Shown in pieces: positions 7,584 to 22,827 of a stretch of 64,000 bases of DNA (position 1 is the first letter of the stretch; every line of letters starts with the position of its first letter). The DNA lies in NCBI GenBank assembly GCA_029742005.1, contig GCA_029742005.1_4113.1; one strand, written 5' to 3'. Made by a program: the position numbers and the translations under genes. This stretch comes from a phage. The notes below the pieces were generated by a model. It was not told where the DNA came from. It did no database searches and was given only the letters and a program-made list of their open reading frames with translations.

Positions 7584-7922
7584 ATGCTTGAGTTTTTTAA
7601 TTCAGATACAATGCTTAGTATTACTTTGATTTATCTGTTTGGTTTTTTCTTTTATCATGCACTAGTTGTAGTACTATGGTATTTTAAAAAGAAAATCGTT
7701 TTCAAACTGTATCCTGATGGAAACATTTCACTACTTCTTTTCACTATTATCCAAGGTATGTTTGCAATTGTTGGTCTTATCGCACACTTAATTTATTGTG
7801 CTAATCCACAGTTGAACTCAATATCACAATATATTGTATTCCTTGGATTACTAATTTGGGTGCTGATATACTTGTTTAATCTCATCATTAATGGTAGAGC
7901 AAAAATTCGTGGGGACTTCTAA
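7584..7922 (+). CDS. small multi-pass membrane protein, family A
   Basis: RBS GGAGA; hydrophobic; first of seven tandem paralogs. Confidence 0.55.
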   Translation: MLEFFNSDTMLSITLIYLFGFFFYHALVVVLWYFKKKIVFKLYPDGNISLLLFTIIQGMFAIVGLIAHLIYCANPQLNSISQYIVFLGLLIWVLIYLFNLIINGRAKIRGDF

Positions 7923-8269
7923 TGTTTGAATCTTATCTTGAGTTTTTAAAGAGTAGTTCTGTTGCACATTCAATTGCAGGGATTATTCTAACAGGTTATG
8001 TAACATTTTGGGTAGTTATGTTTCTAGGATGGTATTTTAAACGACAATTCTATAAGCGTAATGGTGAAGATTTTATGAATTCTTTCATTAATCAATCGTT
8101 GTTTGCATCAACATTGATAGCATGTATTGTAGCAACACTCACAGGAAAGGTACTGCCAGCATTCTCCGCAGTTTACGGTACATTGGGTATGATATGTGTA
8201 GTTTTTTACTTGACCATTAAACTTTGTTGTGTTATGATTGAACTTCGAAACAAGATACCGGAGGAATGA
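7922..8269 (+). CDS. small multi-pass membrane protein, family A
   Basis: Start overlaps previous stop; C-terminus ELRNKIPEE. Confidence 0.55.
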   Translation: MFESYLEFLKSSSVAHSIAGIILTGYVTFWVVMFLGWYFKRQFYKRNGEDFMNSFINQSLFASTLIACIVATLTGKVLPAFSAVYGTLGMICVVFYLTIKLCCVMIELRNKIPEE

Positions 8270-8604
8270 TGGAATATTTTTTACACTTACTGCCGTGGTA
8301 TATGAAAGTTAGTACTATGTACTATATTCTTAGTGCTGGATTCTACTTTCTGATGTGGTTCTTCAAACGACCAATTTCAGTATTCATCTCTGATAACATG
8401 CTGCAATTAAAATTACACGCATGGTTTTTTATGGCGATGTTTATGCCTATTATTCACTACTCAATGATTAGTAGAGGTTTACGTTCTAATGGTGAACCAA
8501 TTATATTAGTATTCTATTGGGGTTCAACTATTGCATATGTAAGTTTGTTGTTGATCCCAGCCGTTCATAAATTACGTGCTAAAGTTCCTGATGTGAGGTA
8601 CTAA
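8266..8604 (+). CDS. small multi-pass membrane protein, family A
   Basis: ATGA stop/start overlap; C-terminus KLRAKVPDVRY. Confidence 0.55.
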   Translation: MMEYFLHLLPWYMKVSTMYYILSAGFYFLMWFFKRPISVFISDNMLQLKLHAWFFMAMFMPIIHYSMISRGLRSNGEPIILVFYWGSTIAYVSLLLIPAVHKLRAKVPDVRY

Positions 8605-8918
8605 TGGATATCTTAACATTGATTTACACGTTGTATTCATTCTATTTTATTATGTGTTGGGTTGGATTTTTATTTGTACTGAAGATGTTTGATTATGTTG
8701 AAAAACAGATAAAAGAATTTTGTATTCCTTTTATTGGGTCAACCATTATTAGTATTACTTGTTTGTATTATTTGGTATGTGATCCACCTGATGATACAGC
8801 TATGATTGATTTCATGTTATTGCCAACAACTGTTATTTTTTTATGTAGTCTGATGCCACCGATTAGCCGTGGACTAACTGAATTTAGACGCAATCAAAAG
8901 CGTAAACGAGGGATGTGA
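8604..8918 (+). CDS. small multi-pass membrane protein, family A
   Basis: RBS GAGG; C-terminus EFRRNQKRKRGM. Confidence 0.55.
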   Translation: MDILTLIYTLYSFYFIMCWVGFLFVLKMFDYVEKQIKEFCIPFIGSTIISITCLYYLVCDPPDDTAMIDFMLLPTTVIFLCSLMPPISRGLTEFRRNQKRKRGM

Positions 8919-9286
8919 TGGAAATTGCACTTATTATATTAACTGCTATGTTGTTTATTAGTACAATTGTTATTATTGGCAAGTTCTTCTGTGTATCCTT
9001 CTTGGAAACCGTATACGATGAAATTGCTGATGATTATGAATTACATGCGGGATTTTTTACTACGTATTGGATTAGTTTATTACTACTTATCACTGTATGG
9101 ATTTTACATATATTCAAATGGGGTATGGTAGATGGTGATCCAGTACTGGCAATTATCTGTGTAGTGTTTGGTCTACTCGGTGGTGCTGTCCATAATCTGA
9201 TGGTAATTTGGCAAACCGTACAATATGTATTAGTTCCACATTTTCAGAGAATGCACCAAAGCATCAAATACCGCAAACGAGGATAA
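8918..9286 (+). CDS. small multi-pass membrane protein, family A
   Basis: ATG at 8918 after RBS GAGGG (ORF track starts at GTG 8915). Confidence 0.55.
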   Translation: MEIALIILTAMLFISTIVIIGKFFCVSFLETVYDEIADDYELHAGFFTTYWISLLLLITVWILHIFKWGMVDGDPVLAIICVVFGLLGGAVHNLMVIWQTVQYVLVPHFQRMHQSIKYRKRG

Positions 9287-9287
9287 C

Positions 9288-9650
9288 ATGAATAATATTG
9301 AATTATCTTTTATTGGTCAATTAATGGTAATGGCGTATACATTTATCTTCTCACTGAATGCATTCGTGTGCATTGGGAAGTACTTCCATAAGCGACCATT
9401 ATCAAATATATATGATGTAATCCAAAAGAGATATAGTCCAGCATATACTGTGTTGGGTACAGTATTCAATTTTGGTTTTATTGTATTAATAATTGGACTG
9501 TTCACATCCTCTTTGAATACAATAACCTTCGGTCTTATGATATGTTCATTGGTATTAGCCGTAATTATATGTTGTTTAGTACTACACCTTGTGATACTAT
9601 TATATATAAAGATCTCTGAAATCCACCAACGTTTGGGTATGAGGAAATAA
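9288..9650 (+). CDS. small multi-pass membrane protein, family A
   Basis: RBS GAGGA; hydrophobic. Confidence 0.55.
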   Translation: MNNIELSFIGQLMVMAYTFIFSLNAFVCIGKYFHKRPLSNIYDVIQKRYSPAYTVLGTVFNFGFIVLIIGLFTSSLNTITFGLMICSLVLAVIICCLVLHLVILLYIKISEIHQRLGMRK

Positions 9651-9651
9651 T

Positions 9652-10023
9652 ATGAGTTACCGTGAGATATTTTCCATTATTTCAATTATTATGTTCAGTA
9701 CTGGAACACTGGTATGGTTATTATATTTCTTCTGTATTAATCCAGTGTATAATATGTTATGTAATATTAAATCAAGTGCCGGATATATCACTTTTATGGT
9801 CTTTATGGGATATTATTGTCTAAGCATTTTAGGTGTTGTTTTGGTTGTTATATTTGATGTGGGGCCAAATAGTGATGGTATGGAAATACATGAATTAATA
9901 ACCATGTTTGGATGTATGATACCAACAGCACTACTGTTTGTAGCTACTGGTAGTGGATTGATAAAATTATATAATTATTTAAAATCCATTCATAATTCCA
10001 TTCATAATAAGCGTATGTCATAA
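9652..10023 (+). CDS. small multi-pass membrane protein, family A
   Basis: RBS GAGGAA; hydrophobic. Confidence 0.55.
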   Translation: MSYREIFSIISIIMFSTGTLVWLLYFFCINPVYNMLCNIKSSAGYITFMVFMGYYCLSILGVVLVVIFDVGPNSDGMEIHELITMFGCMIPTALLFVATGSGLIKLYNYLKSIHNSIHNKRMS

Positions 10024-10065: not shown

Positions 10066-10728
10066 ATGATGAAATCAAAATTAGGTTTGTTTTATAAAAA
10101 CTATTTTGTTAAACAACGTAAATTTATAAAAAAATATTTCTCTGGTGAGAAGTCTAGTCCTATAATTTTTAAAAGACCAAGTTATAATACTTACTTAGCT
10201 GGTGCTAAACAGTCTAAGAAATTTATTACTCTTTTAAATAAAAACAAAATTAAAGCTTCTTATGTTGAAACGAGAAGAAACTCATCAATAACTCCTGGTG
10301 ATTTTATTGAGTACGGATGTTTCAATATTAAGTATAATGATAATACATACTTTATGGATATTGATTGTAATACATCCAATCTTTTTAACATTGTAGTAAA
10401 TCCATTAAAACAATATAATGTTTATGGTGATTCTATTATCAAATTAATAAAAAACAAAGATGGCTTTGATTTTGAAATAAATGTTTTAGATGATAATTTT
10501 GACGAAGTACCCGTAAACCCTGAAATCTGTGATATTTTAAACAGTTTAAAAGGTAGTACCTACAATATATCATCTGATTTAATGTTTCAGTACTCATTAA
10601 TCCATAAAGATATTGAAAAGTATATTGAATGCTCCAGAATTTTGAATTTTCTCTATGATGAATTTAAAAAGAGTTCTAAAATAACTGCATACACTTTGTA
10701 CAATATTCCTAAAATGGTGAATCTTTAA
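10066..10728 (+). CDS. hypothetical protein
   Basis: RBS AAGGAG; 220 aa; converges on the minus-strand block. Confidence 0.55.
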   Translation: MMKSKLGLFYKNYFVKQRKFIKKYFSGEKSSPIIFKRPSYNTYLAGAKQSKKFITLLNKNKIKASYVETRRNSSITPGDFIEYGCFNIKYNDNTYFMDIDCNTSNLFNIVVNPLKQYNVYGDSIIKLIKNKDGFDFEINVLDDNFDEVPVNPEICDILNSLKGSTYNISSDLMFQYSLIHKDIEKYIECSRILNFLYDEFKKSSKITAYTLYNIPKMVNL

Positions 10729-11132
10729 CAAATACAGTACTGGCAACTCCACCGTCTGTAATATATTGTCCAGTACTGTAAATTTGTATACCATCGGTTA
10801 AGTAAGTTCTGTATAAAGTTGCTGTAACATATACGTTATTCATATTCATCTCTATTGGTAGTACACATTTGGTATAGGCCGACACATCTGTTTGTGTACC
10901 TATACCCAATTGACCTGCGTTATCGCCTGTGTTATTACCAGTTGCGTAAACACCCAATGAAGTTATAATATGATTAGAAAAATATGAATAACCCAAACTC
11001 TTGAGATTCTCTACTGTACAACGTACCATCTGACATAAGGGCAAAAACTGTTGTATCAGATGAAGCTATTTTTGTTACAGAAGGTTGTATGTTCTGTTTT
11101 GATGATGTGATAATTCTTCGAAAGGGTAGCAT
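10709..11132 (-). pseudogene. truncated/frameshifted RCC1-like paralog
   Basis: MLPFRR start after GGAGGA at 11132; frame breaks in 10974-11044; downstream frame has GNNTGDNAGQLGIG; total about 170 aa versus 370-395 aa for paralogs. Confidence 0.4.
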
Positions 11133-11203
11133 TGTATCCTCCAAATGTAAATCGTTATTATATTTAGGACAAAAAATGCCAGTACAAGGCACTGGCATAA
11201 AAT

Positions 11204-12373
11204 CTAAGCAGAAGGCATATCCTTCATCTTAATAAATGAAAATTGTGTACCAGTATTTGTGGTTTGATCAGTAAAATATGAATTACTACCAGCCCAGTAC
11301 AATTCATTATTAACTATACAATATATAACAGAACTCGAACTCTGTGAATACACACGACTTATATTTGATGGTTCTACTCCAGTACTGAACTGAACCGAAC
11401 CCAACTGTGAACTTGGTATCACATCAGTTGGTCTACCTAAACCATTAACACCAGCCCCACCACCACATGTATATACCCCAGTACTATCAGTTGATATATT
11501 AACATAACCATTCCCGGCATTTTCAAATAGTATTTCACTGGGAGCAACACCAAATCCTGTAAGATCTATTTTCCTGAATGTAGTGTAAACAGTAGAACCA
11601 CCAACACCTCTTCCACCATAATCATTAGAACCAGCCATATAGATACTATATCCAGAACTTCCTAAACATAATAACTGTACGTTGTCATATAATATTTGCA
11701 TAGATATAACGTTATCAGGAATACTCAATACCGTAAAAGTAGTTAAAGAAGAACTTCCAATATTACTACCAACCGATGTTCCACATCTGTAGTACTTACC
11801 GCCTTTTATATAATGGAACGATGAACCCCCTAACTTATGTGCTCCTATTGCACTTACCTCAGTATCTATGAGAATGGGAGATACAACTTTGTTATTAACA
11901 CCTAACTCAGATCTACTGTTCATACCGAACCCATATAAACGACCATCTAACATCAATATTAGTGTACTACCGGAAGTACCCGCTGACGTAAATTCTATAT
12001 TCTTTATTTGCGACACGTCAATACCTACAAATAATGAAGTTACTTCAGTCCAGTTAACATATGAACCACTAGCCCCAAAATATCCACCCATGTATAGACC
12101 TGCACAATATAATTTATTATCAACAGTCTTTATTAATGTACCGGATACACACGCCCAAAAATCATCAACTTCATAGGGTACATGTACCCAACCACCTAAT
12201 ACATCACTAGCATCCCCTGTACCTAATTTATAGTTCGAACCAGAACCACGCATGTACATATTCCCTGTACTATAAAGTAATCCGACATGTAATTGACTAC
12301 CATCCAATTTCTTTATTTCGGGAAGAGTTGGTTTAATATTTCCGTACTTTAACATTCTTCCAAAAGGTAACAT
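11204..12373 (-). CDS. RCC1-like repeat (beta-propeller) protein, MLPF family
   Basis: Start MLPFGRMLKYGN after AAAGGAGGAA; G-x-N-x-x-G-x-LG-like repeats. Confidence 0.6.
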   Translation of the reverse strand: MLPFGRMLKYGNIKPTLPEIKKLDGSQLHVGLLYSTGNMYMRGSGSNYKLGTGDASDVLGGWVHVPYEVDDFWACVSGTLIKTVDNKLYCAGLYMGGYFGASGSYVNWTEVTSLFVGIDVSQIKNIEFTSAGTSGSTLILMLDGRLYGFGMNSRSELGVNNKVVSPILIDTEVSAIGAHKLGGSSFHYIKGGKYYRCGTSVGSNIGSSSLTTFTVLSIPDNVISMQILYDNVQLLCLGSSGYSIYMAGSNDYGGRGVGGSTVYTTFRKIDLTGFGVAPSEILFENAGNGYVNISTDSTGVYTCGGGAGVNGLGRPTDVIPSSQLGSVQFSTGVEPSNISRVYSQSSSSVIYCIVNNELYWAGSNSYFTDQTTNTGTQFSFIKMKDMPSA

Positions 12374-12399
12374 AATTCCTCCTTTATTCATTATACTAT

Positions 12400-12437
12400 A
12401 TTTAATACAAAAAGAAAAGCCAGTACAGAGTACTGGC
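12400..12437 (-). terminator. terminator hairpin GCCAGTAC-N3-GTACTGGC with T-run on minus strand
   Basis: Perfect 8-bp stem; minus-strand transcript reads hairpin then TTTTCTTTTT. Confidence 0.55.
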
Positions 12438-12444
12438 CTATATT

Positions 12445-13164
12445 TTAGACTGAATTGTTAGGATAATATCTCCCACGTCCCCATATTATTCGCACAGCAC
12501 CACCACCAGCAGCCGTATAAGAAAAATTATCCCATATACTACCACCACCACCATACATCTTACCAGCACCACCACTACCAGCACCACCATTATATGAACC
12601 ATCGTATCTACCGCCAATACCATTAGCACCTTGAACAATGATACCAGTACCACCACCCGTACCAATGAACGAGGTATTATAGAATGCACCACCACCGCCG
12701 CCGCCGCCAGCACCATTTTCACCAGTGATTGCATCTCCGTTACCACCTTTACCAGTGTAGCCACCAGCACCACCACCAATGACTGCACCACCACTTACAC
12801 CAGCGTTGCCCCCATTACCACCACCATCATTAATAGCGTTAGCAGCTTTCCCACCTAGTCCACCAACCCTATATTCACCAGTGAAGCTAACACATAGTTT
12901 TTCAGTTCCACGATATAAACCGTTTTCAACTGGTGTAGTAGTGTTGGGATGTGTAAGAGAAACACTTAAGTACTCACCACTAGTAACCGGAATATTATTA
13001 CGCCACGATAAGCCGCCACCAGCACCACGTTGACCACCCGGCGAAATAACACATACTGATATTTCGGTAACGCCAGCAGGAACTGTAAATTGTGTTGTTC
13101 CTATTGTCGTGATTAATTGTTCACCATGTGGCTTATATTCAATTTTATTCCCTCCTTTATTCAT
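12445..13164 (-). CDS. glycine-rich repeat protein (possible fibre-like structural protein)
   Basis: 239 aa, long GGxGG runs in C-terminal two thirds; same upstream module as RCC1 genes. Confidence 0.55.
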   Translation of the reverse strand: MNKGGNKIEYKPHGEQLITTIGTTQFTVPAGVTEISVCVISPGGQRGAGGGLSWRNNIPVTSGEYLSVSLTHPNTTTPVENGLYRGTEKLCVSFTGEYRVGGLGGKAANAINDGGGNGGNAGVSGGAVIGGGAGGYTGKGGNGDAITGENGAGGGGGGGAFYNTSFIGTGGGTGIIVQGANGIGGRYDGSYNGGAGSGGAGKMYGGGGSIWDNFSYTAAGGGAVRIIWGRGRYYPNNSV

Positions 13165-13180
13165 TATAATATATTTAATA

Positions 13181-13211
13181 CAAAAAAGAAAAGCCAGTAC
13201 TCTGTACTGGC
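13181..13211 (-). terminator. terminator hairpin GCCAGTAC-N3-GTACTGGC with T-run
   Basis: Same hairpin as 12419-12437. Confidence 0.55.
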
Positions 13212-13218
13212 TTTTACA

Positions 13219-14409
13219 TTACAATTGTCTAGGTGTATCCAGTACATATCTATTTGTACGAGGACCACCATCATCATGCGTTCCGGTTGAATATATATTT
13301 TTCATATCAGCAGTTAGGAAAGTACGATACGAACCGCGATATATTTTAATTTTATCATACATAGAATATGTTATTCCTGACGGCAATGGACATGCAGTAA
13401 ATTTACCAATGGTAACATTAGAACCAACACCTAATGTACCAGCATAACCACTCGCATTTAAACCAGTTGCATATACACCTGTACTCGTAACTAGTATACT
13501 AGATTGTGATGCATATCCAGTATGGATTGAATAATAAGTTCCTGATGGTAATGTAGTACTATTATTCCCTAATACTGCTAGTGCTGTACTATTCGTAGTG
13601 TTATTACCCCATGCCCCATTATTAGCTAATCCACCAACTAGAAACTGACGTGCTCCTGTATTTGGATTCTCCACTAAAGCACTGACAGCACCAAATGAAC
13701 AAACAGTATATTGTAATGTTTTTGTATATGTGGTACTTGGCTTATACAAAGTATATTCATTAAATGGTGTCCATGTGGTACTAGTACTTATGCCAGATGT
13801 ACTACCACCAATATATAAATTATTTTGTGTATCAAAAAACATTGCACAGTAATTTGTTGACTGTATTTGTGCAATATCTACATCTGGTGTTACCGCTTTA
13901 ACAAATGAACCATCTGATATTTGATAAGTAGTTCCTGTACCATCTGCGAATTGTCTAGCACTATTCCACCCTGTACTCCATATTGTATTATTATCCATTA
14001 AGAAAGTAAACCATGTAGTACCTGCATACATCTGTTTAATTGAAGTACTTGAACTTTGTTTGTACAATTTTTCAATATATTGGTTATAACTTAAAAATGA
14101 TGTAGTACTAGTTTCTAAACCAATATGACTACCATATCCACAATAAAAATAATTTAAGTCCTTATCTTGAACTAACAAAGTTCCTTGTGTCATCCAGCAA
14201 TCTTTGACATTTTCTCTAATTAATGTCCACGACCTTACTGCATTATTATTTCCTCTACCAAACTTCCCAAAACTATTACTGCCTCGTGCGTATAGTTGAC
14301 CGTCGGTATAAAGTACAACAACCTCAGTATCAGTTGGTATTATTTTCTTAATTTGAAGAGGTTCAGGTGTGATATTCCCATAATCAAACATTCTAACAAA
14401 AGGTAACAT
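13219..14409 (-). CDS. RCC1-like repeat protein, MLPF family
   Basis: MLPFVRMFDYGN; RBS AAGGAGGAAAT; repeats such as YARGSNSFGKFGRGNN. Confidence 0.6.
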   Translation of the reverse strand: MLPFVRMFDYGNITPEPLQIKKIIPTDTEVVVLYTDGQLYARGSNSFGKFGRGNNNAVRSWTLIRENVKDCWMTQGTLLVQDKDLNYFYCGYGSHIGLETSTTSFLSYNQYIEKLYKQSSSTSIKQMYAGTTWFTFLMDNNTIWSTGWNSARQFADGTGTTYQISDGSFVKAVTPDVDIAQIQSTNYCAMFFDTQNNLYIGGSTSGISTSTTWTPFNEYTLYKPSTTYTKTLQYTVCSFGAVSALVENPNTGARQFLVGGLANNGAWGNNTTNSTALAVLGNNSTTLPSGTYYSIHTGYASQSSILVTSTGVYATGLNASGYAGTLGVGSNVTIGKFTACPLPSGITYSMYDKIKIYRGSYRTFLTADMKNIYSTGTHDDGGPRTNRYVLDTPRQL

Positions 14410-14478
14410 ATTTCCTCCTTATTCATTATACTATATTTAATACAAATAAGAATGCCAGTATCAAGTACTGGCATTATG

Positions 14479-15588
14479 TTATTTTGGTAAATCAATTTTA
14501 GTAAAGACTGCAACATCCTCGATTGCACCTGGAATGGCGTAATACGATCCAGTACTATACACATCTCCATTTTTGGTTAATATCGATGTCAAACCATCAC
14601 TAAAAAGAACATCCCTAATCTCACTAACTTCAACGGGTAATTGTAAATTGGTAGCACTATATATAGCACCAGTTTGAGAATTGTTTAATCCCAAACCACG
14701 GTTCGCCCCAACACCCTTCTGATATGTACTAGTAATTACCATTTGTGTAGCAGTATTTAAGGCAGGTGAATTCGTCATAAACAACGGAGAACTATTAGGC
14801 AAAGTACTTACAGGAACGGCACGGAATGTAGTCGTGCCTGAACTAAGAAAGTTTGGAGTTTGACCACATACGAAATATGATGTACCATTATAGTAATTGA
14901 ATGCATTACCACCAATGGCTGCATCGATTACACCAGAACTACGCAATCCCCAAGTGTTAATTTGTGTTTGGTTCCCCGTACCATGCTGTCCACTACTATT
15001 CCATCCAGAACTATATAGCTTATTATCTAATGTAAGATACATACTATCATTCGCATTGGTCATTACTTTACGAACGTTCGTAGCACATTGAGTTAATGTG
15101 TAAATTGATGAGGAACCAATACCCAAAGAACCACGATATCCATTATCTCCTGCACCATAGAGTACTGAATTAGTGCTAAGTACAAATATTAAACCATTTG
15201 TACATACAATATTAGCAATTTCACTTACTGGTATAGCATTGGTAAACCAATTAGTCCTTTCAACTAATACAGTACTGTAAGAAGTAGTTGTAGAAGATGA
15301 GAACCAGTACGTTTGACCTGATGTCCATATCGTATTATCATTTTTAATAATAACAAGTGTACGATCACCCACGAAAAAATTAGAAACATCTGCACTTACT
15401 AATATCCATGAAGATACCGTGTTGGTATTACCATTTCCAGATTCACCACCTTGATTTCTACCTATGTAATATAAATCATGTGAATCAGTCAATAAGAATT
15501 GACCTTGTGTAGAAGCACCAACTTTAATTATATTTTTAGGACCAGGTACAATATTTCCGTACTTAACCATTCTTGCAAAAGGTAACAT
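14479..15588 (-). CDS. RCC1-like repeat protein, MLPF family
   Basis: MLPFARMVKYGN start; 369 aa. Confidence 0.6.
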   Translation of the reverse strand: MLPFARMVKYGNIVPGPKNIIKVGASTQGQFLLTDSHDLYYIGRNQGGESGNGNTNTVSSWILVSADVSNFFVGDRTLVIIKNDNTIWTSGQTYWFSSSTTTSYSTVLVERTNWFTNAIPVSEIANIVCTNGLIFVLSTNSVLYGAGDNGYRGSLGIGSSSIYTLTQCATNVRKVMTNANDSMYLTLDNKLYSSGWNSSGQHGTGNQTQINTWGLRSSGVIDAAIGGNAFNYYNGTSYFVCGQTPNFLSSGTTTFRAVPVSTLPNSSPLFMTNSPALNTATQMVITSTYQKGVGANRGLGLNNSQTGAIYSATNLQLPVEVSEIRDVLFSDGLTSILTKNGDVYSTGSYYAIPGAIEDVAVFTKIDLPK

Positions 15589-15598
15589 AATTCTCTCC

Positions 15599-16729
15599 TT
15601 AATTTAATAATGCCCCTGGCAAATCCACTTTGACGAATTGTGCATATGCTGAGGAATTTTGATCAAAGTTTGGTCCCAATCCATAAAATGAGCTAATGCC
15701 GTCTTCATTTGTGTATATGATATAAACGTTCTTTACATCATTTCCGCATATAAATCGAATGTCTTTCGTTTGTGTTCCCGCTGGAACATTACGAAGGTTC
15801 ACAACGCCATTACTTGCATTGTTATCAGCCGACGCAATTGGTAATTGATTTTGACCATATTGACCACGCATATTTTTTGCATCTAAACCAAACACAGTAT
15901 TTGATACCGCACCAACTTTCAAAAATGAACCAAAACTATTATTGAATGACTTTGGAAATGTACCACTATAAACACTTCTCCCATCTGATAATACCGCTGA
16001 ACTGAATTTCCCGTTATTCGATATGGCAAATTCATTGTAAGGAAGTGTACCCATTTTGGTATATACAGAATATGAATTAGTGGAAGTATTATCAATAATC
16101 TTATTACCATTATATCCAATACCATACTGGTATCCGTCTGCATCTTGAACTATACACAAAGGACCACTTGGGGTTTGTGTCAACGAAACAACACGTTCAA
16201 CTTGTATATCACCAAATGTATTTCTTCGCCATGTTCTATCTATTATAGTACTAGTATTACCCAAAGATAATTCCACACTATATAATAGATTGTTTTCAGT
16301 AAAAATGGCAACATAATATGCGTGGTTAATAACTTGCTTCATCCCAGCATCAATAACTTCCTGTGGAATATGATCAGTAACATCCAACCAATCAAGGTTA
16401 GATGATGCAATATCTGGAGTACTGAATTTGTCAAATCTAGTTGAGCCACAAACTAGCACTCTATCATCATTTGTCAAAGCCACTGTGCTAGTCTGCATAT
16501 TAGAACTGAATGATTTAACATTACTAATGTTAGACTTGTACCAACCCTTATCAGCAGCACCCACCGTGAATCCGGTTCCCATTGATCCACTTGTACTTGT
16601 ACCATAAGCCCACATCTCACCACTATATGTTAGTGCCATACAGTGGCTTCCATTTGCTTGGAAATCCTTTATACCAGTGGGAGCAACCACTGTATTCCCA
16701 TAATCAAACATTCTAACAAAAGGTAACAT
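15599..16729 (-). CDS. RCC1-like repeat protein, MLPF family
   Basis: MLPFVRMFDYGN after GGAGAT; track start MEILV is the SD region. Confidence 0.6.
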   Translation of the reverse strand: MLPFVRMFDYGNTVVAPTGIKDFQANGSHCMALTYSGEMWAYGTSTSGSMGTGFTVGAADKGWYKSNISNVKSFSSNMQTSTVALTNDDRVLVCGSTRFDKFSTPDIASSNLDWLDVTDHIPQEVIDAGMKQVINHAYYVAIFTENNLLYSVELSLGNTSTIIDRTWRRNTFGDIQVERVVSLTQTPSGPLCIVQDADGYQYGIGYNGNKIIDNTSTNSYSVYTKMGTLPYNEFAISNNGKFSSAVLSDGRSVYSGTFPKSFNNSFGSFLKVGAVSNTVFGLDAKNMRGQYGQNQLPIASADNNASNGVVNLRNVPAGTQTKDIRFICGNDVKNVYIIYTNEDGISSFYGLGPNFDQNSSAYAQFVKVDLPGALLN

Positions 16730-16804
16730 AACTAAAATCTCCATATAATAATTATAATGTATTTACAAAAAAATACCAGTACATATTTCAGTACTGGCAT
16801 TTTG

Positions 16805-17932
16805 TTAAAATGGTAAATCTATTTGTTTAGTAAATGTCATACTTAGTGGTATTGAACACATTGACGCATTTCTCCCATTTAAATTGGACGGAGGCTGTCC
16901 GTTCATCCATATATTGGTATCGTCGTAAAAAGTACTCCACCACGTAGAACCTTCCGTATGAAGATTAATATTAAAATCAGGGAATTGACATTCTTGAAAA
17001 ACATCAAAAAACGGGATAGATGATACACTACTACCAGTAAATGGAGTGTAGCCTGTTGACATTAATTTATTAGTATCCGAATTTACCAAAAAGATAACAG
17101 AACCAGTATTGAATGGTGAATATTTTGGATACAAATTACTCATATCACCGATAGTGAAGTTGATATCAAATATTTTACTATGCTTACCAGTTCCTGAAAG
17201 TGTAGTACCAGTTACATATATTTTATTATCAGTTGTTCCCATGACAAACCCAATTCCAAATCCCACACAAAATGTTATGTCATATGGTATATTATCAAAG
17301 AGTGGGACAAACGTTGTGGCATCACCAGTAGTAGCTTTTATTTGATAGCTATTATTTGCCCCAGCACCCCAAACAGTACCATTTGATTTCACTTTGAATA
17401 TACTATCTCCTATGTAGTGACCGTATATACTATCAACTTCAGTATCAAGTTTTGTCCATTGTGATACAAAGTTTTTATGCCCTAAACCTAAACAACCATT
17501 GCGGTTTAGTCCCCTGCCGTATAGTGTACCATCATTCATCAGTACAAATGTTGTGTATCCACAAAGCATTTTTTTGATTTGTGTAACATCAATACCAGCA
17601 AAAAAACCACTCCAATCAGTATATCCTTGTTGGATTGCGTTTGATTTGGTGAATGACATAGTTGGTCCTGAACCATATATTTTACCATCTTTTATAATCA
17701 CTGAATAAGAACCTAACCATACATCTTGAACATTCTCACTAATTGTTTTCAATTCACCATATGCAGAGAATGGAGTACTTTGCCCTGCACTATATGATGA
17801 ATCTTCACCGTGTGCATATAATGTTCCATTTTCTGTTAGAATCATTTCCAAATATACACAATTGACAATTTTCTTTATTTTATTAACTTCTATTTTATTT
17901 CCGTACGCTAACATCCTTGCAAAAGGTAACAT
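16805..17932 (-). CDS. RCC1-like repeat protein, MLPF family
   Basis: MLPFARMLAYGN; YGRGLNRNGCLGLGH repeat. Confidence 0.6.
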   Translation of the reverse strand: MLPFARMLAYGNKIEVNKIKKIVNCVYLEMILTENGTLYAHGEDSSYSAGQSTPFSAYGELKTISENVQDVWLGSYSVIIKDGKIYGSGPTMSFTKSNAIQQGYTDWSGFFAGIDVTQIKKMLCGYTTFVLMNDGTLYGRGLNRNGCLGLGHKNFVSQWTKLDTEVDSIYGHYIGDSIFKVKSNGTVWGAGANNSYQIKATTGDATTFVPLFDNIPYDITFCVGFGIGFVMGTTDNKIYVTGTTLSGTGKHSKIFDINFTIGDMSNLYPKYSPFNTGSVIFLVNSDTNKLMSTGYTPFTGSSVSSIPFFDVFQECQFPDFNINLHTEGSTWWSTFYDDTNIWMNGQPPSNLNGRNASMCSIPLSMTFTKQIDLPF

Positions 17933-18007
17933 AACTAAAATCTCCATATAATAATTATAATGTATTTACAAAAAAATACCAGCACATATTTCAGTACTGG
18001 TATAATG

Positions 18008-19180
18008 TTATGGTAAAATAATAGCTTGTAACGAACTCATACCCAATGTTGGAACACTCGCCTGTGGTGCTGGTGCATTCACTTTTGGTGATGAAACCGC
18101 ATAAGTCATTCCTGTACCCAAATCTGGATCAAAAACTACAGAACAATAATCCCCATTGTATATAAGTCCATTAGTATATCCTTGTACACTTTGAATGCAT
18201 TTCGTGAACGTACCAATGTCAGTAGTGGCATTTATTAAGTTCCTCCCACGGTAGCCACATGTGTATATGAAATTATCATCACCTATGTACATACTCGCAT
18301 TCCCAGAAGAACTACATAGATAAGACATATAAGCACGCATGTTTTTAGGAGCAACTGACAATGTACCAGCATAGAATTTATTATTCATACCCGAAATATC
18401 ACCATCACCCAAAGCACCAAAACTCCCCCAACCAGTACCATAATATCTCTTATCACTCAAGAATATAATACAGTTGTTATTACACATCTTGACTTGATAT
18501 ATCAATGAAGGATCAACCCCAGGGAATGATTCAGTGTATGTTAGAACAGCCAGATCAGTACTGGCATTACATTGATGATATGTATTAGTACCAGCGGACA
18601 ATATTGTACCATCAACTAATAGAATCCTCGAAGTGCCAGTACCAGCAATACAAGCAACAGCATTACCTGTATATATTTTTCTGAAAGTAAAGAAACCAAC
18701 AGTCTTACTCCCCTGTCCACTCCAACCAGTATTATCAACACCACATGCCCATACTGAACCATCTTGCATGATCATCATTACACCATAGCGTTCTATCGAA
18801 ATATAGACAATCTTCGTAGTATCAACTGCACTAAATCTAGAAGTTATATCAGTCCAAACCTTTACACTCACCGCCGTCGCACCGAAAGTAGGATCTTCCC
18901 CTGCTATCATTATCCTACCATTGTTAGTCAGATACATTGTCTGACTATAACCAGTACTACAAAACTTAACACTATCAGTCTCTGGAACTTTTAACCACTC
19001 GTTGTAACGTGTTACGTTAGTGTTATTATCTAACTGATAATAGTTATTCATCCCAGATACATATAACACACCATCCTTTATTAAACTATAAGTCGCACTA
19101 TAGTCACTACAGGTATAACGTGTACCCACAGGTCGCTCAACGACGTTCCCATATTCTAACATCCTTACAAAAGGCAACAT
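18008..19180 (-). CDS. RCC1-like repeat protein, MLPF family
   Basis: MLPFVRMLEYGN; no clear SD; start uncertain. Confidence 0.5.
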   Translation of the reverse strand: MLPFVRMLEYGNVVERPVGTRYTCSDYSATYSLIKDGVLYVSGMNNYYQLDNNTNVTRYNEWLKVPETDSVKFCSTGYSQTMYLTNNGRIMIAGEDPTFGATAVSVKVWTDITSRFSAVDTTKIVYISIERYGVMMIMQDGSVWACGVDNTGWSGQGSKTVGFFTFRKIYTGNAVACIAGTGTSRILLVDGTILSAGTNTYHQCNASTDLAVLTYTESFPGVDPSLIYQVKMCNNNCIIFLSDKRYYGTGWGSFGALGDGDISGMNNKFYAGTLSVAPKNMRAYMSYLCSSSGNASMYIGDDNFIYTCGYRGRNLINATTDIGTFTKCIQSVQGYTNGLIYNGDYCSVVFDPDLGTGMTYAVSSPKVNAPAPQASVPTLGMSSLQAIILP

Positions 19181-19221
19181 AACTAAATACCAGAACATAT
19201 TTCAGTACTGGTATCGTAGCG

Positions 19222-20364
19222 TTAAAATGGCATCTTAACCTCTTTATATACTAATATATCACCGGATAAACCAGGAAACGCAGAACCATTACCACATGCA
19301 TATATAGTACTGTCATTCCACGCCGCTTGATGGTAATTACCTATAGTACATTTATAATTCGATAAATCAGTCACACCAGGTGTTAGTACATAATATACTG
19401 GTCCACTAGGTAAATTAAAATCAAATCTACCAAAGTAGTTCAAACCAGATGAATAGGACTTGTCATTAGCAAATATTACAGTACCATCTTCTGTAAAAGA
19501 ACTGTGAGAAATGTCTTTGAGATTGTTCACAACACCAGACGGTATTGATGTATTCAACGTAAAGGACGTCAATGGTGCTGCACTCGGTGTGTTGTTCGCC
19601 GTGTAACCATAATATGCATAACCAGCTACATATACACTCGAATCTGAACAAAATAAAAATGCACTCCTATAACCCAACCTAATACTCTCTATAGTCTTAC
19701 TAAAAGTAACTTTAGTAAAGGTAGGAACTAAACCACTATATCCTACCCCACATGTACCAAAATCATTCTTCCCAGTACTGTACAATTCGTTATTATTTGT
19801 AAGGTAAAATGACGCAGCAGCACCGCTATCTAAAGTACTGTAAACGTCTTTTACATTACTCGCAATCAATTTAAATGCACTCAATACGGTAGCCGAACCA
19901 TTGTTAGACAGCGTTGTTGAATCCGTGCCTTGTCCTATTGTATATAAATCTCCAGTACTAGTCAAAACAAATATACCATTAGTCGCCATAACAATTCTGT
20001 CATTCTTTAAATTAAATGAACTAAAAAGTGTACTTATATCAGTAAAGGTAGTATAACGCCCACTCTGCCCTATACTCGATAAATTCCCACTCAAATAAAC
20101 CTTATTATCATTACCAACAGCTACATAACAACCCCACCCAGCATATATCTGATCAATGCCTTGTATCGGTATTTGTAACCATTCACTACCAGTTACCGAA
20201 GCAGTACTTCCAGTTCCAAGTTCACCAGAGTTATTAGCTCCGAATACATATAAATTCCCACTATCCGATAAAACAACTGTATTACCAACTCCAGTTTTTA
20301 TATCCTTGATACCATTCTTAGGAGCAACATTCCCATAATCAAACATTCTAACAAAAGGTAACAT
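19222..20364 (-). CDS. RCC1-like repeat protein, MLPF family
   Basis: MLPFVRMFDYGN; RBS GGAGGGAAAT. Confidence 0.6.
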   Translation of the reverse strand: MLPFVRMFDYGNVAPKNGIKDIKTGVGNTVVLSDSGNLYVFGANNSGELGTGSTASVTGSEWLQIPIQGIDQIYAGWGCYVAVGNDNKVYLSGNLSSIGQSGRYTTFTDISTLFSSFNLKNDRIVMATNGIFVLTSTGDLYTIGQGTDSTTLSNNGSATVLSAFKLIASNVKDVYSTLDSGAAASFYLTNNNELYSTGKNDFGTCGVGYSGLVPTFTKVTFSKTIESIRLGYRSAFLFCSDSSVYVAGYAYYGYTANNTPSAAPLTSFTLNTSIPSGVVNNLKDISHSSFTEDGTVIFANDKSYSSGLNYFGRFDFNLPSGPVYYVLTPGVTDLSNYKCTIGNYHQAAWNDSTIYACGNGSAFPGLSGDILVYKEVKMPF

Positions 20365-20436
20365 ATTTCCCTCCTTTATTCATTATACTATATTTAATCA
20401 AAAATAAAAGCCAGTACTTGAGTACTGGCATAGTAT

Positions 20437-21564
20437 TCAAAAAGGTAAATCAATTTGCTTAGTAATAATAGTATCTAACGGTATTGAACACAATGAGAAA
20501 TTCTTTCCACCCGTATTTTCAGGATTATATCCATTCATCCATACATTATTACCTTCGTAAAATGTATTCCAGTATAAAGCCCCACTATATCGTGTATTCG
20601 AATTGAACGATGGAAAGTTGAATTCTTGGAATGATGTAAAATATGGAATGGAACTTGAACTACTTCCCGTAAATGGGGTATACCCAGTTGCTATTAGTTT
20701 GTTTGTATCTGCATTAATTAAAAATACAACACTAGTCGAATAGTCCAACGAATCAGGATGATATATATTACTCATATCACCTATAGTAAAACCAACATCA
20801 AAAACTTTACTATGTGCACCACTACCAGCAAAAGTAGTTCCAGTTGCATATATTTTATTATCAGATGTTATCATTACAAAACCAACACCAGAAACAAAAC
20901 TGCATTTTATATCATAAGATATATCATCAAACAACGGAACAAATGTGGTTGCATCACCCGATGTTGCTTTAACTTGAAAGCTGTTATTTGAACCTGAACC
21001 ATATACAGTTCCATCGTTTTTAATCTTAAACAATGTATCGCCAAGGTAACCGCCAAATATATTATCCACATTAGTGTCAAGTACAGTCCACGCTGAAACA
21101 TAATTTTTATGTCCTAAACCTAATGCACCACTTCGATTCCATCCTCTTCCATAAAGTGTTCCGTCTTTCATTAATATAAATGCTGTATAACCACATAACA
21201 TTTTTTTAATTTGGGTAACATCTATACCAGTGAAATACACAGCCCAGTCAGTATATCCTTGTTGGAAAGTATCAGAATTCGTGAATGCATATGTTGGACC
21301 TGAACCATATATTTTATCACCTTTAATAACAACGGAAAACAATCCTAACCATAAGTCATCAACTTCAGTTGTGATTTGTTGAACTGCTCCTAACGATACA
21401 AACTTTGTACTTAAACCCGCATTATAGTTTGAATCTTCACCGTGTGCATATACAGTGCCATCTTGCATTAGAAACATTTCAAGAGTGCCACTAACAACAC
21501 TTTTCTTTATATTATTAACTTCGATTATATTCCCATAATCAAACATTCTAACAAAAGGTAACAT
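20437..21564 (-). CDS. RCC1-like repeat protein, MLPF family
   Basis: MLPFVRMFDYGN; YGRGWNRSGALGLGH repeat; closest paralog of 16805-17932. Confidence 0.6.
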   Translation of the reverse strand: MLPFVRMFDYGNIIEVNNIKKSVVSGTLEMFLMQDGTVYAHGEDSNYNAGLSTKFVSLGAVQQITTEVDDLWLGLFSVVIKGDKIYGSGPTYAFTNSDTFQQGYTDWAVYFTGIDVTQIKKMLCGYTAFILMKDGTLYGRGWNRSGALGLGHKNYVSAWTVLDTNVDNIFGGYLGDTLFKIKNDGTVYGSGSNNSFQVKATSGDATTFVPLFDDISYDIKCSFVSGVGFVMITSDNKIYATGTTFAGSGAHSKVFDVGFTIGDMSNIYHPDSLDYSTSVVFLINADTNKLIATGYTPFTGSSSSSIPYFTSFQEFNFPSFNSNTRYSGALYWNTFYEGNNVWMNGYNPENTGGKNFSLCSIPLDTIITKQIDLPF

Positions 21565-21636
21565 AATTCCCTCCTTTATTCATTATACTTTATTTAATAC
21601 AAATAAGAATTCCTGTATCGAGTACTGGCATTCAAT

Positions 21637-22785
21637 TTATTGTAAAAAGGACATATCTACTTCTGTATAACTAAGAATGTTTTGACCAGCAATTCCACCC
21701 ATTACTACTATTGCATACCCACAATAATATAATTTCCCAGTGTCCGTAAGTATAAGTGAACCAGAAGGTGTTCTTACCAAATTACACGAACTATTAAAAG
21801 AAGTATACGAAGGAGTATAGGAGTACTGATTAATATTATTACCAACACCTAATTGACCACCCCTATTCGAACCAGATGCATAAAGTACTTCATCTGCTTT
21901 GACAATATGTGATGCCATGTTAGCAACACATGCATATACACCATATACCCCTGTACTCAATAATGTAGGAGTCTTGTATTGAATATCAGTACTAGTAGAT
22001 GTTCCACCTGTGCCAAATTCATTACCATATTGTGCTCCGTACTGCTTCCCACATGCGTACAAATTATTATCCGATTTGATAAAAAATGTACTCTGATAAC
22101 TTACATCAAAATCTATAACATCCGAAGAAATCATCGTTACCCCAGTAATCGAAGTTTGATTACCAGTACCCAACTGGTAGTAATAGTTAAAACCACAACC
22201 CCATAAAGTATTATCTTCTTTTAGGTATATGTTACCAACTGCCTTTTTAACCGAAGTTATAGTATCTACCCTTTTGAATGTGTTAAAAGAATTAATGTTT
22301 GTACCATCACCAAATGATGATAGGTTCGAGTTATTGTTAACTCCACAACAATACAACGTACCATCGTTTGTTATCAAATTCACCTTCATATCATTAAAAC
22401 TACTCATGTATTTTATATCAGAAACATTAATACCACCTGATGTTATCCATGTAGTACAGTCCGTCCATAACGTCTTCCTATCAGTTACCCCAGTAAATGC
22501 CTTCGTGTTACCAGTGATAAACACTTTACCAGTACCCTTTTCTTCATACAATTGACAATCACTACTGTTATCTTCCAATAAAACCCTCTGTACATTCTCT
22601 GCACAAAGAATAAATTTACTCGATGCTACACCTGTTCCAGTACCCCAATTCGTCGCAGAAGATGCATACAACTTATGTGTTAGTGTATCATGCAAATACA
22701 TAGAACCACTAGAATATATTTTAAAACGCCCAGAGTTGGTAGGTGCTTCATTCCCATAATCAAACATTCTAACAAAAGGTAACAT
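21637..22785 (-). CDS. RCC1-like repeat protein, MLPF family
   Basis: MLPFVRMFDYGN after AAAGGAGGAAAT; track start MNKGGN covers the SD. Confidence 0.6.
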   Translation of the reverse strand: MLPFVRMFDYGNEAPTNSGRFKIYSSGSMYLHDTLTHKLYASSATNWGTGTGVASSKFILCAENVQRVLLEDNSSDCQLYEEKGTGKVFITGNTKAFTGVTDRKTLWTDCTTWITSGGINVSDIKYMSSFNDMKVNLITNDGTLYCCGVNNNSNLSSFGDGTNINSFNTFKRVDTITSVKKAVGNIYLKEDNTLWGCGFNYYYQLGTGNQTSITGVTMISSDVIDFDVSYQSTFFIKSDNNLYACGKQYGAQYGNEFGTGGTSTSTDIQYKTPTLLSTGVYGVYACVANMASHIVKADEVLYASGSNRGGQLGVGNNINQYSYTPSYTSFNSSCNLVRTPSGSLILTDTGKLYYCGYAIVVMGGIAGQNILSYTEVDMSFLQ

Positions 22786-22827
22786 ATTTCCTCCTTTATT
22801 CATTATATCATATTTACCCCATAACCC

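What the first reader, a model, noticed from the sequence alone, without database searches (positions are those of the whole stretch)
10709..11198. Decayed RCC1 paralog: MLPF start followed by a frame break
An MLPFRR start with a GGAGGA Shine-Dalgarno opens one frame (to 10974), while the RCC1 repeat GNNTGDNAGQLGIG continues in another frame (11044..10709). The combined length of about 170 aa is half that of the intact paralogs. This is either a pseudogene showing turnover within the family or a programmed frameshift.
Basis: seen in the sequence. Interest (0 to 1): 0.4.

Follow-up and report, generated by a model that had tools for sequence, protein, structure and literature searches.

The report
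Deletion remnant of an RCC1-like phage gene
This is the dead stump of one gene in a jumbo coliphage's family of RCC1-like propeller genes: a 729-base internal deletion left only its two ends, which sit in different reading frames because the full-length gene in related phages already carries one extra G that has, oddly, been conserved under selection.

Summary
On the minus strand, a GGAGGA Shine-Dalgarno site precedes an ATG at 11132 (MLPFRR...). That frame stops at TAA 10976-10974. An RCC1-like C-terminus continues in the +1 frame to 10709.

The window comes from an Asteriusvirus-type jumbo coliphage (121Q/PBECO4/phAPEC6 group). Eight related phages carry a 1153-nt version of this gene (121Q gp235+gp234). 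The window lacks exactly 729 nt of it (121Q allele positions 138-866), joined at a TGGG microhomology. What survives is residues 1-47 and 290-383 of a 383-residue seven-bladed propeller.

The same allele is base-identical in phAPEC6, SP27 and a metagenome contig, so it is not a sequencing error. G17 has the same deletion plus stop codons in both fragments. That argues for decay, and against a programmed frameshift in this allele.

The twist concerns the frame offset. The deletion is a multiple of 3, so it did not create the offset. The offset is inherited from one extra G after Trp71 (TGG|G|TGC), present in every full-length allele and in a metagenomic orthologue at saturated synonymous divergence (dS about 1.6, dN/dS 0.08). 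An intact 382-aa orthologue also exists. This suggests +1 recoding or a functional split gene in the full-length form, but that site is deleted in the window.

Verdict: an ordinary pseudogene remnant with an interesting ancestry.

The parts
11176..11198 (-). Terminator-like hairpin (ATGCCAGTGCCTTGTACTGGCAT plus a T-run) of the upstream intact RCC1-like paralogue (11204-12391). It contains the spurious ATG of the 74-aa ORF.
   Evidence: 10-bp stem, T-run. The same GCCAGTAC...GTACTGGC hairpin precedes most paralogues. G17 annotates a terminator here.
11155..11166 (-). A/T-rich box TAAATATAATAA between the terminator and the SD. It resembles the TATTAAATATAGTATA box upstream of the intact paralogues. 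It is an inferred promoter-like element.
   Evidence: sequence comparison only; function inferred.
11137..11142 (-). Shine-Dalgarno GGAGGA, 4 nt upstream of the MLPF ATG.
10992..11132 (-). N-terminal fragment: codons 1-47 (MLPFRRIITSSKQNIQPSVTKIASSDTTVFALMSDGTLYSRESQEFG) of the ancestral 383-codon gene, frame f0. It includes G42E (GGC>GAA, 11009-11007) at a glycine invariant among the orthologues.
   Evidence: 94% identity to 121Q residues 1-47, E=1.5e-22. Pfam RCC1_2 gives 16.5 bits, below the cut-off.
10992..10995 (-). Deletion junction: the 4-nt microhomology TGGG (AGTTTGGG / AGTGTGGG, 7 of 8) where 729 nt, 121Q allele positions 138-866, were lost.
10974..10991 (-). Out-of-frame tail of the N-fragment ORF (LFIFF plus TAA). 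This is C-fragment DNA read in the wrong frame.
10709..10993 (-). C-terminal fragment: codons 290-383 plus the stop (GYSYFSNHIITSLGVYATGNNTGDNAGQLGIG...FVKDSPF*), frame f1 (+1 relative to the N fragment). There is no Shine-Dalgarno sequence before its internal ATG/TTG. Its last 20 nt overlap the convergent gene 10066-10728(+).
   Evidence: SP27 and JP4 annotate a 106-aa CDS here.

Best explanation
The locus is a non-functional remnant (pseudogene) of the last gene in the phage's tandem array of RCC1-like beta-propeller genes. The inferred history has four steps.

(1) The ancestor was an intact gene of about 383 codons, as still seen in metagenomic orthologue P0001.

(2) One G was inserted after the Trp71 codon (TGG TGC became TGG G TGC). 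This put everything downstream in the +1 frame. That 1153-nt form persists under purifying selection in the 121Q/PBECO4 group.

(3) In one sub-lineage, illegitimate recombination or replication slippage between two TGGG microhomologies removed 729 nt, including the extra-G site. Codon 47 became joined to codon 290. Because 729 is a multiple of 3, the two ends kept the inherited one-base offset.

(4) The remnant has since drifted. The window type acquired G42E. G17 acquired two nonsense mutations and two small slippage deletions.

The remnant keeps the family's terminator / A-T box / SD / ATG cassette. At most it should therefore yield a 52-aa peptide (47 authentic residues plus LFIFF). The C fragment has no ribosome-binding site and is probably untranslated. 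Steps 1 to 4 are shown by comparative sequence. The expression statements are inference.
For: Window identity and allele structure:
- The window is an Asteriusvirus-type jumbo coliphage.
- From the MLPF ATG to the shared stop, the allele is 1153 nt in 121Q, E9.1, slurp01, UB, PBECO4, ELP-22, SHEFM2K and CRJP21.
- It is 424 nt in the window, phAPEC6, SP27, ECO103 4-12-1 and JP4, and 406 nt in G17.
- The difference is one clean 729-nt gap at 138-866 with TGGG microhomology.

Not a sequencing error:
- The window allele is identical to phAPEC6, SP27 and metagenome contig L025.

Origin of the frame offset:
- Removing one G from TGGG in all nine full-length alleles gives a clean 383-codon ORF.
- An intact 382-aa orthologue exists (P0001, 76% identity).
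- It models as a seven-bladed RCC1-like propeller: pLDDT 88, TM 0.8 to UVR8, and RCC1 itself at E=1e-15.
- The window retains 3 plus 7 of the model's 27 strands.

Decay:
- G17 has GAG>TAG in the N fragment and TCA>TAA in the C fragment.
- Codon changes found only in deletion alleles are 4 synonymous to 8 non-synonymous or stop. In full-length alleles the ratio is 39 to 7 (Fisher p=0.001).

Not a recent copy of a neighbour:
- The window's own paralogues are only 24-36% identical to this gene.
Against: - The relaxed-constraint signal comes mostly from G17. In the window-type allele itself only two derived codon changes exist, one non-synonymous and one synonymous, so decay of this particular allele is weakly sampled.
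- The regulatory cassette and start codon are intact, so a 52-aa peptide could be made and could conceivably have some activity.
- The deletion allele is widespread (Belgium, Japan, Turkey, China, Germany, and metagenomes). That shows it is at least not deleterious and could even be favoured.
- No expression data were available.
Confidence: 0.88

Rival explanations
1. A programmed +1 (or -2) ribosomal frameshift in the window's allele fuses the N and C fragments into a functional mini-protein of about 146 aa. The shift could occur on the U-run just before the stop (A UUU UUC UAA, 10985-10974).
For: Both frames are open across a roughly 70-nt overlap. A U5 tract lies directly upstream of the f0 stop codon. 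The ancestral full-length gene may itself use +1 recoding.
Against: - The U-run and the TAA are simply the f1 codons for the invariant YSYFSNH motif (TAT TTT TCT AAT) read out of frame. They are present for coding reasons in all full-length orthologues.
- G17 has a stop codon in each frame on either side of the junction.
- The fusion would carry only 10 of the 27 propeller strands and could not close a seven-bladed propeller.
- The candidate ancestral recoding site lies inside the deletion.
Confidence: 0.03
2. A sequencing or assembly error created the frame break, and the real gene is a single uninterrupted ORF.
For: None beyond the a priori possibility. A 1-nt length difference in the upstream T-run between the window and phAPEC6/SP27 shows that homopolymer-length variation or error occurs nearby.
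Against: - The 424-nt allele is base-identical in three independent sources: phAPEC6, SP27 and L025. It is near-identical in ECO103 4-12-1, JP4 and L026.
- One search shows EC22.5-2 with the same short, one-piece allele.
- The one-base offset is explained by the extra G seen in every full-length allele from eight separately sequenced phages.
- Correcting the frame would still leave a 243-codon hole.
Confidence: 0.01
3. The remnant has been co-opted. The 52-aa N-terminal peptide, or the 106-aa C-terminal ORF annotated in SP27 and JP4, is a functional small protein, and the deletion was selected for.
For: - The terminator / A-T box / SD / ATG cassette is retained.
- The allele is geographically widespread and found on several recombinant backgrounds.
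- The full-length and deletion alleles coexist in one metagenome: L024 ends and L027 begins at the junction region.
Against: - G17 and Sharanji truncate the N peptide at codon 45 and interrupt the C ORF.
- G42E hits an invariant glycine.
- The C ORF has no Shine-Dalgarno sequence.
- Frequency alone is compatible with neutrality and hitch-hiking in a recombining phage population.
Confidence: 0.07

Closest known systems
Escherichia phage 121Q gp235 + gp234 (YP_009101822.1, 74 aa; YP_009101821.1, 298 aa), and the equivalent CDS pairs in slurp01, E9.1, UB, ELP-22, SHEFM2K and CRJP21. PBECO4 carries the same allele, but only its 298-aa ORF is annotated.
   Same: Orthologous locus with the same flanks: the upstream RCC1 paralogue with its terminator, and a convergent 220-aa gene overlapping by 20 nt. 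The retained parts are 97-98% identical in DNA, and the two ends have the same f0/f1 offset.
   Different: These alleles are full length (1153 nt). They contain the extra-G frame-break site and evolve under purifying selection (39 synonymous to 7 non-synonymous). The window lacks the central 729 nt, including that site.
The same remnant in phAPEC6 (unannotated, between gp010 and gp011c), SP27 (EO157G_2130, 'putative DNA condensation protein'), JP4 (CDS0214/0215), ECO103 4-12-1, EC22.5-2, and G17/Sharanji.
   Same: Identical deletion junction. phAPEC6 and SP27 are base-identical to the window over the 424 nt.
   Different: G17 and Sharanji have decayed further, with two nonsense mutations and 12-nt and 6-nt deletions. 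The database annotations disagree with one another, and none of the annotation tables fetched flags a pseudogene.
RCC1-like domain seven-bladed beta-propellers (RCC1 1A12, UVR8 4DNW, RPGR 4JHN; Pfam PF00415 / PF13540 / PF25390).
   Same: The ancestral or intact orthologue matches the RCC1 repeat profiles above the cut-offs and models as a full seven-bladed RLD propeller.
   Different: The window retains under 40% of the domain, in two frames. The function of phage RCC1-like proteins is unknown. The phAPEC6 paper only speculates about DNA ordering in the capsid (PMC7247149).
'Corrective' +1 ribosomal frameshifting over conserved single-nucleotide insertions (bird and turtle mitochondrial nad3), and +1 sites at a stop codon (E. 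coli prfB CUU_UGA; Listeria phage PSA CCC_UGA), as reviewed in PMC5009743.
   Same: This applies to the full-length relatives only. A single inserted base is retained over deep divergence with coding constraint on both sides, and the 0-frame stop lies 3 codons downstream. In metagenomic L021 the 0-frame reads CUU UGA, as in prfB.
   Different: No shared canonical shift motif: 121Q reads GUA UGA and L021 reads CUU UGA. There is no upstream SD-like stimulator and no experimental evidence. The site is absent from the window.

Membership tests
RCC1-like repeat propeller (Pfam PF00415 / PF13540) | Profile match above the curated cut-off | tested here: not met
   Window N fragment: RCC1_2 at 16.5 bits against a cut-off of 22. 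C fragment: no hit. The repaired 121Q orthologue passes, with RCC1 at 33.0 against 21.7 and RCC1_2 at 28.8 against 22. The fragments belong to the family by descent (94% and 84% identity to the orthologue), not as a domain.
RCC1-like repeat propeller | Complete seven-bladed beta-propeller fold | tested here: not met
   The intact orthologue P0001 models as a full propeller (pLDDT 87.8; TM 0.80 to UVR8; RCC1 1A12 at E=1e-15). The window retains only strands 1-3 and the last 7 of the 27, in different frames.
Pseudogene / gene remnant | An intact or longer homologue at the orthologous position in relatives, with a disrupted ORF here | tested here: met
   A 1153-nt allele at the same position in 8 phages, and an intact 382-aa orthologue in metagenomes. 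The window has a 729-nt deletion plus a frame offset.
Pseudogene / gene remnant | The disruption is real, not an assembly or sequencing artefact | tested here: met
   Identical allele in phAPEC6, SP27 and L025, and near-identical in ECO103, JP4 and L026.
Pseudogene / gene remnant | Relaxed selective constraint after the disruption | tested here: met
   Changes found only in deletion alleles are 4 synonymous to 8 non-synonymous or stop, against 39 to 7 in full-length alleles (Fisher p=0.001). The signal is dominated by G17. The window-type lineage contributes 1 non-synonymous (G42E) and 1 synonymous change.
Programmed ribosomal frameshift site (in the window's allele) | A conserved shift-prone motif in the frame overlap, with both frames kept open in relatives | tested here: not met
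   G17 and Sharanji have TAG in f0 upstream of the junction and TAA in f1 downstream of it. The required shift is +1. The only slippery element, U5 before the TAA, is a by-product of the f1 coding sequence.
Programmed ribosomal frameshift site (in the window's allele) | Detection of a trans-frame protein product | not testable with these tools
   No proteomic or ribosome-profiling data were accessible.
Conserved recoding / corrective +1 frameshift (full-length orthologue, outside the window) | The same frame break conserved across divergent lineages, with purifying selection in the appropriate frame on both sides | tested here: met
   - The extra G at TGG|G|TGC is present in 8 phages and in L021.
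- 121Q against L021: dS 1.6 and dN/dS 0.084 (N part 0.19, C part 0.065).
- 121Q against PBECO4: dN/dS 0.058.
- 37 of 46 variable sites fall at codon position 3 (p=7e-11).
- A split-gene alternative is not excluded.

The most novel reading that the evidence does not exclude
The one-base offset between the two fragments is a fossil of a conserved recoding site. In the full-length orthologue (121Q gp235/gp234, PBECO4 and others, and metagenomic L021), the single extra G after Trp71 would be bypassed by +1 ribosomal frameshifting somewhere in UGG GUK CGG NUW UGA. This would produce one 383-aa RCC1-like propeller. That would be a 'corrective' +1 frameshift maintained in a phage over saturated synonymous divergence.

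Two observations favour recoding over a two-polypeptide split gene:
- The 14 codons between the break and the next ATG, including the strand TLIKK of the model, stay conserved in f1.
- No conserved canonical start codon precedes them in f1. In 121Q an f1 stop (TAG) lies just upstream and no ATG, GTG or TTG follows it before ATG257.

The window's allele would then be a deletion that destroyed a recoded gene.
Probability: 0.45. Interest if true: 0.55.

Novelty: new member of a known kind. Interest (0 to 1): 0.3.

Why it matters
For the window itself, the result is a correct annotation. The region 10709-11198 should be flagged as a pseudogene remnant. It should not be annotated as one or two 'DNA condensation / RCC1' proteins, as it is in SP27 and JP4.

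The locus also documents how the large RCC1-like paralogue array of Asteriusvirus jumbo phages turns over, namely by microhomology-mediated internal deletion. The full-length and deleted alleles coexist in nature.

The wider interest lies in the ancestry. The full-length orthologue carries a single-base insertion that has been kept, with strong purifying selection on both sides, since before lineages diverged to synonymous saturation. If it is decoded by +1 frameshifting, it would be a rare phage example of long-lived 'corrective' recoding. It would also be a simple reporter-testable site in E. coli.

Tried and rejected
- IMG/VR scan with the repaired protein: it returned only 121Q itself.
- tRNA scan of the window, looking for a possible frameshift-suppressor tRNA: none found.
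- Search for -1 slippery heptamers: dropped, because the required shift is +1.
- Stop-codon reassignment as an explanation of the break: rejected, because f0 after the break contains several stops of more than one kind.
- Salmonella phages SD-15_S21, SD-2_S15, SD-1_S14 and SD-6_S16: they show five to seven further different deletions in this gene. Most lack microhomology, and the genomes are 25-40 kb shorter than their relatives. I did not rely on them because assembly artefacts cannot be excluded.
- In-frame length of the G17 deletions (12 and 6 nt) as a sign of selection: rejected. Both are direct-repeat or tandem-unit slippage events, and G17 has nonsense mutations.
- Literature search: nothing found on this locus or on the frame break. 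The phAPEC6 paper only counts 'eleven RCC1-like proteins'.
- Second homology search, with the 74-aa N-terminal ORF: it added no lineages beyond the 121Q type and L021.

Full report
**What is there**

On the minus strand, the upstream intact RCC1-like paralogue (11204-12391) ends and is followed by a terminator-like hairpin at 11198-11176 with a T-run. After it come:
- an A/T box (TAAATATAATAA, 11166-11155);
- a GGAGGA Shine-Dalgarno site (11142-11137);
- an ATG at 11132-11130 that opens MLPFRRIITSSKQNIQ....

Most intact paralogues of the array (11204-22803) have the same cassette of hairpin, T-run, TATTAAATATAGTATA, AAGGAGG and ATG TTA CCT TTT.

The 74-aa ORF listed from 11198 starts inside the terminator stem, so that start is spurious. 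The real N fragment is 52 aa and stops at TAA 10976-10974. The RCC1-like sequence GYSYFSNHIITSLGVYATGNNTGDNAGQLGIG...FVKDSPF continues in the +1 frame from 10993 to the stop at 10711-10709. Its last 20 nt overlap the convergent 220-aa gene 10066-10728.

**Where the window comes from**

Megablast and blastn place the window in the Asteriusvirus jumbo coliphages: 121Q, PBECO4, phAPEC6, G17, SP27 and relatives. The 611-nt region matches in one piece in phAPEC6, SP27, ECO103 4-12-1, EC22.5-2, JP4, G17 and Sharanji. It matches in two pieces about 730 nt further apart in 121Q, PBECO4, UB, slurp01, E9.1, ELP-22, SHEFM2K and CRJP21.

**The lesion**

I anchored every allele at the MLPF ATG and at the shared stop codon.
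- The long form is exactly 1153 nt in all eight phages.
- The short form is 424 nt (406 nt in G17).
- The difference is one gap of 729 nt (121Q allele positions 138-866), flanked by the microhomology TGGG within AGTTTGGG / AGTGTGGG.
- The window's 424 nt are base-identical to phAPEC6, SP27 and metagenome contig L025 (OERM01000102.1). They differ at one to six positions from ECO103 4-12-1, L026 and JP4.

This excludes a sequencing error. It also shows that the allele is widespread.

In one metagenome assembly (OEQX01), a short contig carrying the full-length allele (L024) overlaps the start of a 179-kb contig (L027). That larger contig begins exactly at TGGG|TTATTC. This suggests both alleles were present in that sample.

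**What was lost**

tblastn with the repaired 121Q protein gives two hits in the remnant:
- residues 1-47 at 11132-10992, 94% identity;
- residues 269-383 at 11053-10712, 84% identity over the HSP. Authentic homology starts at residue 290.

The window's own paralogues are only 24-36% identical to this gene, so the remnant is not a recent copy of a neighbour. No other RCC1 remnants occur in the window.

An intact 382-aa orthologue from metagenomes (P0001, 76% identity) was modelled together with the paralogues as an alignment. The model has pLDDT 87.8 and pTM 0.87. It matches RCC1-like seven-bladed propellers over its whole length: UVR8 at TM 0.80, plus RPGR, HERC2 and RCC1.

Of the model's 27 strands, the window keeps the first 3 and the last 7, in two different frames. 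Pfam agrees:
- the repaired orthologue passes the RCC1 and RCC1_2 cut-offs;
- the N fragment is sub-threshold at 16.5 bits;
- the C fragment has no hit.

**Why the two ends are out of frame**

The deletion is 729 nt, which is 243 x 3, so it did not create the offset. Every full-length allele is 1153 nt (3n+1), and each is annotated as two CDSs of 74 aa and 298 aa.

The cause is one extra G:
- 121Q reads CTA TGG G TTC GGG TAT GAG;
- PBECO4 reads TGG G TGC GGG;
- intact P0001 reads ATA TGG TGT GGC TAT GAA;
- L022 reads GTT TGG TGT GGT TAT GAG.

Removing one G restores a clean 383-codon ORF in all nine full-length alleles. The deletion removed this site, and the window's fragments inherited the offset.

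**Evidence for decay of the deletion allele**

G17 (and Sharanji) share the junction but also carry:
- GAG>TAG at codon 45 of the N fragment;
- TCA>TAA just after the junction in the C fragment;
- a T27K change and four further non-synonymous changes;
- 12-nt and 6-nt deletions that are simple direct-repeat slippage.

The window-type lineage has GGC>GAA (G42E) at a glycine that is invariant among the orthologues.

Codon changes confined to deletion alleles are 4 synonymous to 8 non-synonymous or stop. In the full-length alleles the ratio is 39 to 7 (Fisher p=0.001). Most of this signal comes from G17, so relaxation in the window-type allele itself is only weakly sampled.

**Programmed frameshift in this allele**

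The shift required is +1 (or -2). The only slippery feature is a U5 run before the f0 stop (A UUU UUC UAA). That run is simply the f1 codons of the invariant motif YSYFSNH read out of frame, and G17 has stops on both sides of it. A fusion product would carry 10 of the 27 propeller strands. I rate this rival at about 3%.

**An unexpected point about the full-length relatives**

Among the full-length alleles, 37 of 46 variable sites fall at third codon positions when f0 is used before the break and f1 after it (binomial p=7e-11). Of the 46, 39 are synonymous.

A metagenomic orthologue (L021, ERR11558579; 82% amino-acid identity over the C-terminal ORF) has the same extra G, the same 74-aa and 298-aa ORFs, and the same total length of 1153 nt. 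Nei-Gojobori estimates are as follows.

| Comparison | dS | dN/dS |
|---|---|---|
| 121Q vs L021, whole gene | 1.6 | 0.084 |
| 121Q vs L021, N part | 1.26 | 0.19 |
| 121Q vs L021, C part | 1.71 | 0.065 |
| 121Q vs PBECO4, whole gene | 0.137 | 0.058 |

The frame break has therefore been kept, with protein-level constraint on both sides, since before these lineages reached synonymous saturation. No further disruption has accumulated in that time.

The 31 nt between the f0 stop (TGA, 223-225) and the next ATG (257) differ at only 4 positions between 121Q and L021. In f1 they encode STLIKKKDNT versus TTLIKKKDNS. This stretch includes a predicted beta-strand of the model, E76-81. In 121Q no ATG, GTG or TTG precedes it in f1 after the f1 stop.

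This favours +1 recoding within UGG GUK CGG NUW UGA over a two-polypeptide split gene, but it does not prove it. There is no shared canonical slip motif: 121Q reads GUA UGA, while L021 reads CUU UGA, as in prfB.

The nearest known analogues are the 'corrective' +1 frameshifts over conserved single-base insertions in mitochondrial nad3, and the +1 sites at stop codons in prfB and Listeria phage PSA (PMC5009743).

A third orthologue (L022, 69% identity) is intact at this site but has a different extra base upstream (AAG GAC C GGG).

None of this lies inside the window, whose allele has lost the site.

**Comparison with what is known**

The sequence itself is already in GenBank. It is annotated inconsistently:
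- unannotated in phAPEC6 and G17;
- 'putative DNA condensation protein' in SP27;
- 'regulator of chromosome condensation' in JP4.

The literature searched says only that phAPEC6 has eleven RCC1-like proteins of unknown function. I found no description of the deletion or of the conserved frame break.

**Verdict**

This is an ordinary, well-supported gene remnant (confidence about 0.88). It is a new documented member of a known kind. Modest added interest comes from its ancestry, a conserved single-base frame break in the parental gene.

Noticed in passing
L004:1570-2722 (121Q gp235/gp234); also L009, L010, L011, L001, L015-L017, and L021:1309-2461: Every full-length orthologue carries the same single extra G after Trp71 (TGG|G|TGC/TTC), yet evolves under strong purifying selection on both sides. 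Among the phage alleles, 39 variable sites are synonymous and 7 non-synonymous. 121Q against metagenomic L021 gives dS 1.6 and dN/dS 0.08. This is a candidate conserved +1 recoding site or a functional split gene.
   Followed up: partly
L022:2704-3862 (Logan SRR30543657 contig): A 69%-identical orthologue is intact at the 121Q break site. It has a different one-base insertion upstream (AAG GAC C GGG ACG), which gives 52-aa and 307-aa ORFs. It rests on a single contig, so an assembly error is not excluded.
   Followed up: no
L024 (OEQX01001432.1) and L027:1-60 (OEQX01000005.1): In one metagenome, a short contig with the full-length allele overlaps the start of a 179-kb contig that begins exactly at the TGGG deletion junction. 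This suggests the full-length and deleted alleles coexisted in that sample. L024 also has a second 1-nt deletion (CC>C at allele position 527/528) that returns the reading to f0.
   Followed up: partly
L005-L008 (Salmonella phages SD-15_S21, SD-2_S15, SD-1_S14, SD-6_S16): The same gene carries several other internal deletions: 68; 27+192; 445+72; and 223+149 plus a 3' deletion that also truncates the convergent gene. Most lack microhomology. These genomes are 25-40 kb shorter than their relatives, so the deletions may be a real deletion hot spot or assembly artefacts.
   Followed up: partly
window 11133-11203, 12392-12444, 13165-13218, 14410-14478 and other gaps between genes of the array, up to 22880 (minus strand): Most genes of the RCC1-like array are preceded by one conserved cassette: a GCCAGTAC...GTACTGGC hairpin with a T-run, TATTAAATATAGTATA, then ATGAATAAAGGAGG and ATG TTA CCT TTT. 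The 'MNKGG(I/N)' extensions that an ORF caller adds to some paralogues (11204-12391 and 21637-22803) are probably spurious, because that sequence contains the SD for the MLPF start.
   Followed up: partly
window 12445-13164 (-): A 239-aa glycine-rich protein (long GGxGG runs) sits inside the RCC1-like array behind the same regulatory cassette. It has no Pfam hit.
   Followed up: no
window 7584-10023 (+): A tandem run of at least seven small (104-123 aa), very hydrophobic ORFs, tightly packed or overlapping by 1-4 nt. Most end in a short basic tail. They look like a paralogous family of small membrane proteins, convergent with the RCC1-like array. A similar run lies next to the intact orthologue in L018.
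   Followed up: no
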